DNA from: an uncultured bacterium
GTDB lineage: Bacteria > Bacillota_I > Bacilli_A > RFN20 > CAG-826
NCBI GenBank assembly: GCA_949297805.1
Contig: CASFTG010000006.1
Coordinates: 1,623-65,622 of the forward strand
DNA length: 64,000 bases
Direction: 5' to 3'
Shown here: positions 24,098-27,447 of the stretch, in pieces
Layout: every line of letters starts with the position of its first letter
Numbering within the stretch: the stretch's first letter is position 1
Program-made: the position numbers and the translations under genes
The notes under the pieces: generated by a model
Databases searched by the model: none
What the model was told of the DNA's origin: nothing
The model's input: the letters and a program-made list of their open reading frames with translations, nothing else

Positions 24098-24331
24098 CTA
24101 ATTCGCTATCAGGATCTCGTCGGCCAAGTCGAGGCACCGCTCGACCAAGCCAGGCTCAATCGTAAAAAACGATTCGAATCGGCGAAACCGTCACGAATAT
24201 AAACGCTGTTGAAAAATAGGATAGGGAATAATCCGATGAAACGGGATCGTGGCCAAAGGTAATATCACTCACCCTGTTTCCAAAGTAATTGGGCGGCAGT
24301 CTCCCGGATTCAACTCAAAGTCATTATCCAT
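24098..24331 (-). pseudogene. Decayed C-terminal remnant of a paralog of the 177-aa lipoprotein gene
   Basis: Minus-strand pieces MDNDFELNPGDCRPITLETG*, ...ITFGHDPVSSDYS... and RFESFFTIEPGLVERCLDLADEILIAN* align in order with PDDFPTSECGIYQITLGHAFGSDPPFMELF...RYFSIEPELVAQCFDLADRIVSESN of ORF 25762-26295. They are interrupted by stops and frameshifts. Confidence 0.6.
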
Positions 24332-24369
24332 CGGAAAGAATAACCCAAAACAGATCTTGAAAAAGAAAC

Positions 24370-25701
24370 TCAATATCTGTGGACTTCCTTGTCAAACGCT
24401 TTCTTCCCATCTACAAAGGAAAGATTAGGATGCCTTTTTAGATACCGATCGAGTGCTGGATCTCGAACGTAACGAGCAAACTTTTCAGACACGAATTCCC
24501 GAAGACGGATATAAAAGCTAGGGTTGTCTCTTTTTGCTCTCAAAGCAATATAGGCCGAAAATTTGATGATCTCCCCGGTCAAATAGCACTCTGCGGGGTT
24601 TGGCCCTCCGACAGCGGCCTTTTCAATGGCACAAGGCCCTCCACAATAAGTTTTGTAAAGACAATCCGGACACTCGCGAGCTTGCTCATCCAGTCTCACG
24701 CCGGCATCGGCAAGAACGCCGGGCTCTATAATGGTTCCGAGCAACCCAATAGAGGGGGAGCAAGGATAGACAAAGCCATCTAAATCAAAGGCGAAACGAG
24801 TGATGCCGCCGTCACAACGGTTAATTGTCTTCTTGTTGCCGAAAAACCGGCACAAAAATCTGCCAAACCAATCGTCTCCATTCATTAAACGCAAAAATCT
24901 AGAATCATCTCCAGCCAAAGCATCATGAAGCAAGGCGCGAGATAATCGTTCGTATTCAATCGCCCATGCGTGGGCGTGTTCCAAATCAAGACGAAAACCA
25001 TCGCCGCGGACATAACGGTAGCTTAGGGTTTTAAAGATTTTCCCGAGTTCATCAATACTTTCCAGTAAAGGAAACGAATCGTTTCCGATAGTCGCCGCGC
25101 AACCAATGTAATCCCTGCTAGCAATGGACATCACATTATCCAATATAGTTTTATAAGTGCCTTTGCCGCGATATCGATCATTTATTACTTCGTTCCCGTC
25201 AAGCGATACTCCGAACAATATTTCATGATCTTGAAGCAACTTAGCAATCTTAGGGGTCAGCAACGTGCCATTGCAAACAAATTGAGGCAAAACCTCGGTC
25301 ATTATGCGATTGCTGATTTCATGACAGTAATCAGCTAGCGGGAGAATGACATCCAGATTTAACAAAGGCTCACCGATTCCTGACAAATCAACGAAATATT
25401 TCTGACCGTCCGGAAAAAGAGAAAAGAGGTTATCCAAAATATCCTTAGCCTGCTCAAGGCTCATCCTCCGTCCAGACTTGTTCTTGTTAAAACAGTACGA
25501 ACAACGGAGATTGCATCGGTCAGAAACCGCCAAGCAAAAAGTATAAGCGGTCCTGGGGACAAACTGCGCAATCTGGGTTAAATCAACAGCAGGAGGAGCG
25601 GACGGAAAAAGGCTTGGGTTAAGCGAAAATGCGCGCGAATCTTCATCAATATACAAGTTATCCTGCAGTACCGTAAAACTTTGTACCATTGCGTATTTCA
25701 C
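24370..25701 (-). CDS. Radical SAM enzyme with C-terminal SPASM domain (peptide/protein maturase, anSME-like)
   Basis: 443 aa. Contains CNLRCSYC (CX3CX2C), then RCDGG...GFVYPC and CPDCLYKTYCGGPC (CX2CX5CX3C), the SPASM signature. About 65 aa precede the radical-SAM cluster. Confidence 0.85.
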   Translation of the reverse strand: MKYAMVQSFTVLQDNLYIDEDSRAFSLNPSLFPSAPPAVDLTQIAQFVPRTAYTFCLAVSDRCNLRCSYCFNKNKSGRRMSLEQAKDILDNLFSLFPDGQKYFVDLSGIGEPLLNLDVILPLADYCHEISNRIMTEVLPQFVCNGTLLTPKIAKLLQDHEILFGVSLDGNEVINDRYRGKGTYKTILDNVMSIASRDYIGCAATIGNDSFPLLESIDELGKIFKTLSYRYVRGDGFRLDLEHAHAWAIEYERLSRALLHDALAGDDSRFLRLMNGDDWFGRFLCRFFGNKKTINRCDGGITRFAFDLDGFVYPCSPSIGLLGTIIEPGVLADAGVRLDEQARECPDCLYKTYCGGPCAIEKAAVGGPNPAECYLTGEIIKFSAYIALRAKRDNPSFYIRLREFVSEKFARYVRDPALDRYLKRHPNLSFVDGKKAFDKEVHRY

Positions 25702-25761
25702 TCGCTATAATGCCAGATAGAGAGAATCCATAAAAAGAAAAGAAACCCTAGGCCCCAAAAA

Positions 25762-26295
25762 TTAAATTGATTGATTAGATTCAGAGACAATTCTATCGGC
25801 TAAGTCGAAGCACTGAGCAACTAGTTCAGGCTCAATAGAAAAATATCGTTGTGAAACGTAAAGCTCATCAGATAAAACGCGAATCCACCTTGGCAAAAAC
25901 AATTCCATAAACGGCGGATCTGACCCGAATGCGTGACCAAGCGTGATTTGGTAAATTCCGCATTCAGAGGTAGGAAAATCATCAGGAAATTGTTCGGGCG
26001 CATCAGGATAGCACTTATCGCAAACATTAACTGGGGTGGCCTTTTCGAGTATGTCGATAAAAGGAAGCGAGTCATCTCCGAAAACAATTGGTTTCGAATC
26101 AAAGGTTAATGAATAGCCTTTCCGAAGAGAAACGCTGCTTAAAACGCTGAAATAAGAAGAGTTCTCGCAGGCGGCTTTACGCGTGTGATAAGCCAAGAGG
26201 CTGCACGAGGATAAGTCGACCGCAGCGAGAACAAAAATCCCGAAAACACAACGAAACAGCCCGTTTGCAAATCTTTTAGCAAAGCCCGAAAACAT
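25762..26295 (-). CDS. Cys-containing hypothetical lipoprotein
   Basis: 177 aa with a signal peptide and lipobox (DLSSC) and five further Cys in the mature part. It overlaps the upstream gene by 20 nt and ends 60 nt before the radical SAM gene. Confidence 0.55.
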   Translation of the reverse strand: MFSGFAKRFANGLFRCVFGIFVLAAVDLSSCSLLAYHTRKAACENSSYFSVLSSVSLRKGYSLTFDSKPIVFGDDSLPFIDILEKATPVNVCDKCYPDAPEQFPDDFPTSECGIYQITLGHAFGSDPPFMELFLPRWIRVLSDELYVSQRYFSIEPELVAQCFDLADRIVSESNQSI

Positions 26296-27376
26296 AATCG
26301 CTGAAAAGCTCCGTCACCTTGGCTCGAACGTTTACTGGTTTCTTGTCCTCGCTCGAAGGATAAGTTTTATTTCCGTTCAACAAGTAATACTTGGCCACAT
26401 CGGTTCCGTTTGAATAAGAAGACGATTCCTTCCAAACGCCATTGTTATAAGTCAAGCCAAGCATGTCCCCTACTTCGCAGAGGAACTTTTGCTTATTCGA
26501 CCCACTCCAAGAGGAATTTGATTTTGAAAGTACCGCATCAACAAAATGGTTTTTTCGGAAAGTATCATTGAGATTATGGTAATAGTTTTCCACCGCTGTC
26601 GAAACATGCTTATCGGATGGCAAAAAATCTCTGGCAATAATCATTCCGTCGATATCGGCCAAAACATCTTCCTGGGAACATTGCCCAAAAACTGACATAA
26701 ACTTGCCAAAGTTGTTCATGCCAAGAACAGTTGAATATTGATCTATGCGAATCGAATTCACCGCCGTTTGCAAATCCCCGGCCCAAGAAGCTAAATCCAT
26801 GACATATTCATCACCCAAGGGTACGGAAGGGGACACAAAACCAATATCCAAGGTATTTTCATAAGCAGCATCCATAACGGCGAACATATGGATCAAATCT
26901 ATGCCGCGGTAGGACTTAACAGGATCTTTAAAACACAAACTTTGCCAAGAAGAACCTCTAGGATGACTAAAATTATCGCCACGATGGGCTGAGCCACCCC
27001 ATTTGCCGCCATCGACAAACTGCGAAAAATAATAACCTGATTGGTTAAAGGCGTCGACGGTCGATGAGACCAAGAAAATGTTAGGATCATATCCGGCTAC
27101 ATACGCCCAAAGGGCGGCCTTATCAAGTCCGTTGCCGGTGTAGCCGATATAATCCTCATTGAAGCTTCGCAAATACATCATAGTGATATTCGGTTCAGCC
27201 GAAGACATAAATTGAGCGACTTCAATGCAATAAGCCTTAGCAAAAGGCTCAACAAATTCGATATGGCTAACCAACTCGGAAACAGTCGTCGACGAGAAAG
27301 AAGTCGACGAAGTAGTTGCCGTTATATTAGTTAATGCTGACAAGGCAACAGGAACAACAGATATAAACGATCCCAT
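26276..27376 (-). CDS. Hypothetical secreted protein
   Basis: 366 aa with a hydrophobic N-terminus followed by an S/T-rich linker. It is the first gene of the cassette. No family is recognised. Confidence 0.5.
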   Translation of the reverse strand: MGSFISVVPVALSALTNITATTSSTSFSSTTVSELVSHIEFVEPFAKAYCIEVAQFMSSAEPNITMMYLRSFNEDYIGYTGNGLDKAALWAYVAGYDPNIFLVSSTVDAFNQSGYYFSQFVDGGKWGGSAHRGDNFSHPRGSSWQSLCFKDPVKSYRGIDLIHMFAVMDAAYENTLDIGFVSPSVPLGDEYVMDLASWAGDLQTAVNSIRIDQYSTVLGMNNFGKFMSVFGQCSQEDVLADIDGMIIARDFLPSDKHVSTAVENYYHNLNDTFRKNHFVDAVLSKSNSSWSGSNKQKFLCEVGDMLGLTYNNGVWKESSSYSNGTDVAKYYLLNGNKTYPSSEDKKPVNVRAKVTELFSDYVFGLC

Positions 27377-27418
27377 ATGGCGCCTCCAAAATTAATATAG
27401 ACCTTTTCCCGAATGAGT

Positions 27419-27447
27419 AAAGAAAAGCCCGTCGCGATGGACGGGCT
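27419..27447 (-). terminator. Rho-independent terminator after nifJ
   Basis: On the minus strand: AGCCCGTC-CATCGC-GACGGGCT followed by TTTCTTT. Confidence 0.8.

What the first reader, a model, noticed from the sequence alone, without database searches (positions are those of the whole stretch)
24098..27447. Radical SAM/SPASM maturase cassette with two secreted proteins and no small precursor peptide
ORF 24370-25701 has a canonical CX3CX2C cluster (CNLRCSYC) and a full SPASM signature (C..G....C, then CPDCLYKTYCGGPC). It also has a ~65-aa N-terminal extension where RiPP recognition elements usually sit. Only 60 nt of spacer lie upstream, and I see no short precursor ORF. Instead it is the last gene of a terminator-delimited unit. 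The first gene encodes a 366-aa secreted protein of unknown family. The second, overlapping it by 20 nt, encodes a 177-aa lipoprotein with five Cys in its mature part. No sulfatase (C/S-x-P-x-R) partner is nearby, which argues against a plain anSME role. There is precedent for SPASM enzymes acting on whole proteins: QhpD installs Cys-to-Asp/Glu thioethers in QhpC. Directly downstream lies a decayed copy of the C-terminal half of the 177-aa gene, which keeps the two Cys-containing blocks (GDCRPITL, ERCLDLADEIL). This indicates cassette duplication and turnover.
Basis: partly seen in the sequence, partly recalled or inferred. Interest (0 to 1): 0.7.

Follow-up and report, generated by a model that had tools for sequence, protein, structure and literature searches.

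The report
Radical SAM maturase for C-terminal-cysteine proteins
In small wall-less gut bacteria, an iron-sulfur radical enzyme travels with dozens of unrelated exported proteins that share only a last-residue cysteine tag, suggesting an undescribed way of chemically capping the tail of secreted proteins.

Summary
The cassette is real. The enzyme is a PapB/CteB-like radical SAM/SPASM protein (7-Cys SPASM, truncated RRE, clade-specific C-terminal helices) below every NCBIfam cut-off shown; it is not an anSME. 36 of 40 dereplicated loci with full flanks carry a Cys-ending protein (random anchors 12%), spread over about 26-31 BLAST families (papain-like, subtilase, trypsin, C92, MACPF, YkzU), consensus hydrophobic-[P/S]-x-Cys. 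Homologues from genomes without the enzyme end in Cys in 0/19, 0/15 and 1/20 cases; 6 of 8 held-out genomes from other orders fit. The lipoprotein's cysteines are not conserved, so it is probably not the substrate. The 366-aa protein is YkzU/TelC-like (lipid II phosphatase toxin fold); the lipoprotein is a likely immunity partner. Best model, all chemistry inferred: the enzyme binds the terminal thiolate at AuxI and closes a thioether to the residue three back, before export. Decarboxylation or anchoring remain open. The decayed downstream copy is real but covers only about residues 124-170. No description found in ten paper searches.

The parts
27426..27447 (-). Intrinsic-terminator-like hairpin after the upstream 1193-aa gene (pyruvate:ferredoxin oxidoreductase by recalled sequence motifs); 5' boundary of the unit
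   Evidence: 8 pairs, 6 GC, U tract
26276..27376 (-). 366-aa exported YkzU (PF27189) / TelC-fold protein, probable antibacterial lipid-phosphate phosphatase; proposed substrate
   Evidence: fold Z 10.8, rmsd 5.1, 221 aligned to TelC 5ukh, only chain with Z>=5 of 48,161; profile match E 0.0071, only match up to E 10. Export signal inferred from the hydrophobic, low-confidence N-terminus; no signal-peptide predictor was run
26279..26290 (-). Codons for the C-terminal tag Phe363-Gly-Leu-Cys366 (hydrophobic-x-x-Cys-COOH)
   Evidence: 13 of 14 rows of family alignment A2 end in Cys; not made by an overlapping ATG here
25762..26295 (-). 177-aa lipoprotein (lipobox LSS-C31); probable immunity or inhibitor partner, probably not the substrate
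   Evidence: 3 homologues only; positional partners share no mature Cys; enzyme-free copies of the 366-aa family are mostly followed by similar-sized lipoprotein-like genes too
25742..25756 (-). Weak hairpin plus U tract in the 60-nt spacer; possible partial terminator
   Evidence: 6 pairs, 3 GC; 25 sites found against 15.8 expected, so it may be chance
24370..25701 (-). Radical SAM/SPASM enzyme: C63/C67/C70; AuxI C296, C314, C357 with an open site; AuxII C344, C347, C353, C372; N-terminal strands only; about 70-aa C-terminal helical extension
   Evidence: ligand assignment by alignment to CteB as given in PMC10177961
24110..24254 (-). Decayed, divergent remnant of the 3' end of a paralogue of the 177-aa lipoprotein gene (about residues 124-170)

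Best explanation
The enzyme is a leader-independent maturase whose substrate is the free C-terminal cysteine of the exported protein encoded beside it. Shown by computation: gene linkage, the portable hydrophobic-[P/S]-x-Cys-COOH tag, its near absence from enzyme-free homologues, and the CteB-type 7-Cys SPASM layout. Inferred: in the cytoplasm, before Sec export and final folding, the tail threads into the barrel; the terminal thiolate binds the open iron of AuxI; the 5'-deoxyadenosyl radical takes an H from the hydrophobic residue at -3 (Phe363 here); a C-S bond closes a four-residue thioether ring (-2 Da) that caps the protein end, probably for stability or targeting. In this window the cargo is a TelC-like antibacterial enzyme and the lipoprotein its immunity partner. 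My split: enzyme acts on the terminal Cys about 0.8; intramolecular thioether given that, about 0.65-0.7.
For: Enrichment: 52 of 237 complete neighbour ORFs end in Cys against 12 of 1195 genome ORFs; 39 of 94 exported neighbours >=250 aa against 2 of 207 in the own genome, where the only two signal-peptide-type Cys-ending proteins lie beside this clade's enzymes; 62 of 76 dereplicated clade loci, 36 of 40 with >=2.5 kb on both sides, 0 of 5 outgroup loci, against 590 of 5000 random anchors. Family controls: YkzU 5 of 5 beside the enzyme, 0 of 19 in enzyme-negative genomes, 0 of 3 distant copies in positive genomes; NF045837 11 of 11 adjacent, 0 of 15 in negative genomes; C39-like family 9 of 9 in positive genomes, 1 of 20 in negative ones. 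Loss: L185 nests among Cys-ending members, comes from an enzyme-negative genome (89% complete) and stops one codon early. Held-out genomes of other orders: 6 of 8 fit. In-window contrast: the 525-aa gene at 18990-20567 lacks the Cys that its enzyme-adjacent homologue has. Motif: -3 is L/W/F/V/I/Y in 41 of 52, -2 is Pro in 21 and Ser in 10. Enzyme: closest solved structure CteB, Z 31.3; seven SPASM Cys align with CteB; anSME's extra Cys and the Asp after C276 are missing. Substrate Cys binds AC1 in PapB/Tte1186 (PMC10177961, passages); NxxcB links Cys to Asn of an NxxC motif and tolerates other acceptors (PMC9389541, passages); CrpC crosslinks inside CPLV and CAGM motifs of a protein (PMC13692751, passages).
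Against: No biochemistry. Within each cargo family the Cys-ending members cluster (1, 2 and 3 changes on the trees), so the counts are not independent; independence rests on the number of families. Profiles A2 and A6 were built mostly or wholly from enzyme-adjacent proteins. Exceptions: 4 of 40 full-flank loci have no Cys-ending ORF >=160 aa; 55 of 94 exported neighbours do not end in Cys, among them L022-291 and L075-295 inside enzyme operons; G228 has a Cys-ending cargo and no enzyme found. In 17 of 52 cases the Cys codon overlaps the ATG of a long next ORF. The tail is modelled as a confident helix to residue 365, so it must be caught unfolded. In PapB and CrpC the Cys precedes the acceptor. 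The enzyme is often broken while the partner keeps its Cys (own paralogue; G617).
Confidence: 0.55

Rival explanations
1. The enzyme acts on the terminal Cys but oxidises it: H abstraction from Cys C-beta gives a thioaldehyde that decarboxylates to an enethiol (-46 Da) or hydrolyses to a C-terminal aldehyde, which then crosslinks or acts as a reactive cap.
For: The Cys is strictly the last residue across families, as a reaction needing the free carboxylate would demand. MftC and LanD-type decarboxylations are precedents (recalled, no call). Pearlin enzymes act on a C-terminal Cys (PMC9303977, passages).
Against: The open AuxI site and CteB/PapB kinship point to C-S coupling; the Asp that follows the AuxI Cys in anSME is replaced by Pro.
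Confidence: 0.15
2. The thioether is intermolecular: the terminal Cys is joined to a membrane lipid or to the partner lipoprotein, anchoring exported proteins in cells without wall or sortase.
For: The own genome (94% complete) gave no Mur ligase and no sortase match but has signal peptidase I. Some uncultured Bacilli orders lack both (PMC10868615, passages; that this genome belongs to one of them is my inference).
Against: Partner lipoproteins share no motif; enzyme-free homologues have the same cargo-lipoprotein layout; a lipidated tail would have to cross Sec last.
Confidence: 0.1
3. The terminal Cys is not an enzyme substrate: it forms a disulfide, binds metal or is an export cue, and co-travels with an enzyme whose true substrate (a small peptide elsewhere) was missed.
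For: A Cys at the position of C233 is present in 8 of 9 Cys-ending YkzU rows; Nif11-like leader peptides (label recalled) occur in two loci, L022 and L024.
Against: That Cys is also in at least 4 of 18 rows that do not end in Cys; Cys parity is 27 even to 25 odd and one cargo has a single Cys; no Nif11-like peptide in the own genome; the enzyme is the only gene common to all loci.
Confidence: 0.13
4. Artefact of translational coupling: an ATG-TTA-A overlap with the next gene spells Cys-stop in the upstream frame.
For: 17 of 52 Cys codons overlap the ATG of a long downstream ORF.
Against: 26 of 52 have no ATG there, including this window; enzyme-free homologues with the same gene layout end in Cys in 1 of 54 cases; the -3 and -2 preferences are not explained.
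Confidence: 0.03
5. One reading: anSME for a distant sulfatase, or QhpD-like Cys-to-Asp/Glu links in the Cys-rich lipoprotein.
For: SPASM fold; anSMEcpe Z 25.8; lipoprotein has five mature Cys.
Against: TIGR03942 58.8 bits against cut-off 349.45, TIGR03906 75.2 against 453; the only sulfatase-fold ORF lacks C/S-x-P-x-R; lipoprotein Cys not conserved.
Confidence: 0.04

Closest known systems
PapB / CteB / Tte1186 ranthipeptide maturases (NF047865, TIGR03974; PDB 5wgg)
   Same: Best HMM in this protein and in 10 of 10 further homologues; best fold, Z 31.3; 3+4 Cys SPASM with open AuxI.
   Different: Below cut-off (126/340); RRE reduced to strands; about 70-aa C-terminal extension against about 30-45 in most RRE-bearing relatives; no short precursor; proposed donor is a single terminal Cys that follows the acceptor.
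QhpD/QhpC and CrpC/CrpA (radical SAM thioethers on proteins; PMC13692751)
   Same: SPASM enzyme with seven Cys acting on a protein encoded next door.
   Different: Those use an RRE and leader, a dedicated Cys-rich substrate and several internal Cys that precede the acceptor; here one terminal Cys sits on dozens of unrelated exported cargoes.
NxxcB (streptococcal beta-thioether at an NxxC motif; PMC9389541)
   Same: Cys three residues after the acceptor; AuxI-activated thiol proposed.
   Different: Short RiPP precursor, Asn acceptor; no relationship to this clade was tested.
TelC-TipC of Streptococcus intermedius (PMC5555719, PMC6193138; PDB 5ukh)
   Same: Fold and the D-x-x-A-D-x-D stretch match the 366-aa protein; toxin gene followed by a membrane-anchored partner.
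   Different: TelC is an LXG/type VII substrate; here there is an N-terminal hydrophobic signal and a terminal Cys, 14% identity, and no tested likeness of the lipoprotein to TipC.
anSME (TIGR03942; PDB 4k37)
   Same: SPASM enzyme acting on a protein Cys before export (recalled).
   Different: Eighth Cys and the Asp after C276 absent; no sulfatase motif in the genome.

Membership tests
anSME (TIGR03942) | HMM score above the curated cut-off | tested here: not met
   58.8 against 349.45; neither genomic copy passes
anSME (TIGR03942) | Eight SPASM Cys and Asp directly after the AuxI Cys (roles recalled) | tested here: not met
   Seven invariant SPASM Cys; YPCSP / YxCPAA against anSME YPCDF
anSME (TIGR03942) | Sulfatase with C/S-x-P-x-R in the genome | tested here: not met
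   One sulfatase-fold ORF (649 aa) without the motif; genome 94% complete
PapB/ScfB ranthipeptide maturases | HMM cut-off (NF047865, TIGR03974) | tested here: not met
   126.4/340 and 78.1/425; 0 of 10 homologues pass any family shown
PapB/ScfB ranthipeptide maturases | Seven-Cys SPASM with open AuxI | tested here: met
   Alignment to CteB C344/362/413 and C400/403/409/432
PapB/ScfB ranthipeptide maturases | Complete N-terminal RRE (three strands plus three helices) | tested here: not met
   Model at pLDDT 94.5 shows strands at about 6-27 and one short helix before the barrel; first Cys at 63 against 104 in CteB; a permuted RRE test was inconclusive
PapB/ScfB ranthipeptide maturases | Short Cys-rich leader-core precursor nearby | tested here: not met
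   None among ORFs >=15 aa in the spacer and flanks; no recurring small ORF seen in the loci; very short or distant peptides are not excluded
PapB/ScfB ranthipeptide maturases | Catalyses a C-S crosslink | not testable with these tools
   Needs reconstitution and MS
QhpD / CrpC protein thioether maturases | Dedicated substrate with several internal Cys motifs, HMM TIGR03906 | tested here: not met
   75.2/453; only the terminal Cys is shared among cargoes
Nif11-like peptide maturase (TIGR04064) | HMM cut-off and Nif11-type leader peptide in the genome | tested here: not met
   89.4/518.7; tblastn with two such peptides found nothing at E 1e-3
TelC-like lipid II phosphatase (366-aa protein) | TelC fold and aspartate-rich motif | tested here: met
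   Z 10.8, rmsd 5.1, 221 aligned, next hit 4.4 (under the tool's ~13 caution for helical folds); profile E 0.0071; invariant D160, H163, S197-W-x-G-D201, D237, D241, D243
TelC-like lipid II phosphatase (366-aa protein) | LXG domain / type VII export | tested here: not met
   No Pfam or NCBIfam family matched the protein; the model covers residues 30-366 with the TelC domain alone
TelC-like lipid II phosphatase (366-aa protein) | Phosphatase activity and neutralisation by the downstream partner | not testable with these tools
   Needs assay

The most novel reading that the evidence does not exclude
A general, portable post-translational system of wall-less Bacilli: any exported effector that gains a four-residue hydrophobic-Pro-x-Cys end becomes a substrate for one leader-free radical SAM enzyme, which caps it with a thioether ring or tethers it covalently to the cell surface, a radical-chemistry counterpart of sortase or CAAX tags, and a ready tool for C-terminal protein cyclisation.
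Probability: 0.45. Interest if true: 0.9.

Novelty: new variant of a known kind. Interest (0 to 1): 0.8.

Why it matters
Radical SAM thioether enzymes are known for short leader-bearing peptides and a few dedicated proteins (QhpC, CrpA). Here one enzyme clade, found in 40 of 400 genomes of an order and in other orders of the class, is tied to a four-residue C-terminal tag on unrelated secreted peptidases and toxins. If the enzyme acts on that tag, this is a new targeting logic (tail rather than leader), a new modification of secreted proteins in gut bacteria that lack wall and sortase, and a minimal tag for enzymatic C-terminal cyclisation or labelling. The prediction names one residue and one mass shift, so it is directly testable.

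Tried and rejected
Complex prediction of the enzyme with the last 40 residues of the 366-aa protein: no answer, score 0.02; not used either way. Sequencing runs: no RNA holder listed; four DNA runs of one study, possibly the source. Permuted RRE (C-terminal helices replacing the missing RRE helices): hhalign probability 0.7% for the C-terminal part and 9.6% for the N-terminal strands; Atlas hits 0.81 or lower; inconclusive. Lipoprotein as substrate, Nif11-type peptide as substrate, anSME role and ATG-overlap artefact were tested and rejected as above. Rows left out of counts: open 3' ends (L174; L197, L202; L211), the 69-aa fragment L169 (ends in Cys, enzyme-positive genome, no enzyme within 16 kb), L186 (Cys) and L204 (not Cys), both distant copies in positive genomes. 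Only 30 of 38 NF045837 places and 30 of 39 C39-like places were examined; all 29 YkzU places were. 'Exported' is a crude hydrophobicity rule of my own, not SignalP. 'Enzyme-negative' means no match at E<=1e-60, in genomes 61-99% complete. Paper searches found no description of this system; the library lacks most subscription journals, and supplements were closed: Supplemental Data set 1 of PMC13692751 lists further enzyme-adjacent proteins and could bear on novelty. Papers seen: PMC13692751 abstract, passages and Discussion; PMC9389541, PMC10177961, PMC10868615, PMC5555719, PMC6193138, PMC9303977 passages only; all others search listing only.
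Full report
Observation. The three ORFs, the 20-nt overlap, the 60-nt spacer and the cysteine motifs are as described. 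The unit lies in a low-GC stretch (0.42-0.49 over 18000-27000 against 0.54-0.60 in the flanking housekeeping genes). A terminator-like hairpin closes the upstream gene; none was listed directly after the enzyme, and a weak one sits between lipoprotein and enzyme.

The enzyme. Its best NCBIfam match is PapB at 126 of 340 bits; anSME scores 59 of 349 and QhpD 75 of 453; none of the 25 families shown (of 78) is passed, and the same holds for 10 of 10 further homologues. The model (pLDDT 94.5) is closest to CteB (Z 31.3). Seven invariant SPASM cysteines align with CteB's three AuxI and four AuxII ligands; the extra cysteine and the aspartate of anSME are missing (ligand numbers from PMC10177961). 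The N-terminus keeps only short strands where an RRE would be, and the clade has a C-terminal helical extension of about 70 residues. The genome (1.65 Mb, 94% complete) has one sulfatase-fold ORF without the C/S-x-P-x-R motif, no Mur ligase or sortase match, and a signal peptidase I.

The clade and its neighbours. The family has 134 hits at E<=1e-20 and occurs in 40 of 400 genomes of the order and 11 of 330 of the class. Neighbours are mostly a large exported protein and a lipoprotein of 170-200 aa, sometimes ABC transporters or a sigma/anti-sigma-like pair. The window's own cargo family recurs with a lipoprotein and the enzyme in 8 of 69 dereplicated loci; other loci carry other families: putative cysteine peptidases NF045837, C39-like, C92, subtilase, trypsin, MACPF, DUF6973, PPC-containing. 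The positional lipoproteins share no mature cysteine. No small precursor was seen near the gene.

The key feature. The cargoes end in cysteine. 52 of 237 complete neighbour ORFs do, against 12 of 1195 in the genome. After dereplication, 39 of 94 exported neighbours of 250 aa or more end in Cys against 2 of 207 in the genome; the 52 Cys-ending proteins fall in 26 BLAST families, with L/W/F/V/I/Y at -3 in 41 and Pro or Ser at -2 in 31. On the enzyme tree, 62 of 76 clade loci, 36 of 40 with full flanks and 0 of 5 outgroup loci have such a neighbour, and cargo families are interleaved; random anchors give 590 of 5000. An ATG overlap could explain at most 17 of 52, and not this window.

Controls. 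YkzU family: 5 of 5 copies beside the enzyme end in Cys, 0 of 22 other complete copies do. NF045837, picked by an outside model: 11 of 11 adjacent, 0 of 15 in enzyme-negative genomes; one negative-genome copy nested among the Cys-ending ones stops one codon early. C39-like family: 9 of 9 in positive genomes, 1 of 20 in negative ones. The window's 525-aa gene, in a separate unit, lacks the Cys that its enzyme-adjacent homologue has. Eight genomes from other orders, fetched after the rule was set, gave 6 fits; one contig ends 148 nt after the enzyme, and in one the enzyme is broken and the next gene lacks the Cys. Against: within a family the Cys-ending members cluster, so each family counts as one to three events; two of the profiles came from enzyme-adjacent proteins; 55 of 94 exported neighbours lack the Cys, two of them inside enzyme operons in the family of alignment A7; 4 of 40 full loci have no such gene; one Cys-ending cargo lies in a genome where no enzyme was found.

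The cargo here. The 366-aa protein is YkzU, PF27189. Its model matches only TelC among 48,161 chains (Z 10.8), and the family profile matches only TelC in the PDB (E 0.0071, over the D-x-x-A-D-x-D stretch). [quoted passage not shown] I infer an exported antibacterial enzyme plus lipoprotein immunity partner; activity is untested. The terminal Cys caps a confidently modelled helix, residues 348-365.

Mechanism. Shown: linkage, tag, enzyme architecture. Inferred: the unfolded, export-competent tail enters the barrel, the thiolate binds the open AuxI iron as in PapB and Tte1186, H is taken from the -3 residue and a four-residue thioether ring forms. NxxcB is a precedent for a Cys three residues after its acceptor and CrpC for short, partly aliphatic rings in a protein. 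Loss of the RRE helices fits recognition of the tail instead of a leader. Rivals are oxidative decarboxylation, an intermolecular anchor, a non-substrate role and artefact; see the fields above. Cysteine parity gives no sign of a disulfide role (27 even, 25 odd).

Membership and novelty. It works like a CteB/PapB thioether synthase but fails the family tests (HMM cut-off, full RRE, short precursor), and it is neither anSME nor QhpD. Ten paper searches found no account of a radical SAM clade tied to C-terminal-Cys exported proteins, within the limits of the library. I rate it a new variant of radical SAM protein maturation, with a real chance of being a new general tagging system. Interest 0.8.

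Noticed in passing
L034:9457-10810 (G000:C1, second enzyme copy): The paralogue has three single-base indels against an intact orthologue; run X2 lacks two of them and, by inference, keeps the third, so it is broken in both strains while its 474-aa partner keeps the WPEC end. The window enzyme may serve it in trans. Truncated enzymes are common in the 1230-member cluster.
   Followed up: partly
window 18431-21263: Sigma-70/ECF-like gene, 525-aa PPC-type exported protein and 182-aa membrane protein: a cargo cassette without enzyme and without terminal Cys; a homologue in L020 has both.
   Followed up: partly
window 31205-36104: 314-aa exported protein plus two ABC/permease fusions, again enzyme-free and without terminal Cys; homologue L028 lies in an enzyme operon and ends in Cys. 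The family recalls beta-pore-forming proteins (from memory, not tested).
   Followed up: partly
window 24003-24080: Perfect 33-bp tandem repeat (2.4 copies) over the promoter-like site of the AAA_14/DUF4143 gene.
   Followed up: no
window 22035-22533: tRNA-Pro(ggg) at 22457-22533 inside the low-GC island, beside a fragment that resembles the end of an AAA/DUF4143 gene on the plus strand; possible integration site.
   Followed up: no
L022:17862-18155; L024:5411-5710 and 12003-12293: Cys-rich peptides with Nif11-like leaders (label recalled) near two enzyme loci; none found in the own genome.
   Followed up: partly
L019 (CAVIBR010000028.1): The same three-gene cassette on a 33% GC contig labelled Bacteroides uniformis; its genes group with Bacilli of this family, so it is probably a binning contaminant.
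   Followed up: no
L110, L111: Nearest outgroup enzymes (about 600 aa) sit with an AgrB-like gene and two-component genes (labels recalled), a 77-89-aa double-glycine-type ORF and a peptidase-ABC transporter: a conventional peptide cluster with no Cys-ending neighbour.
   Followed up: no
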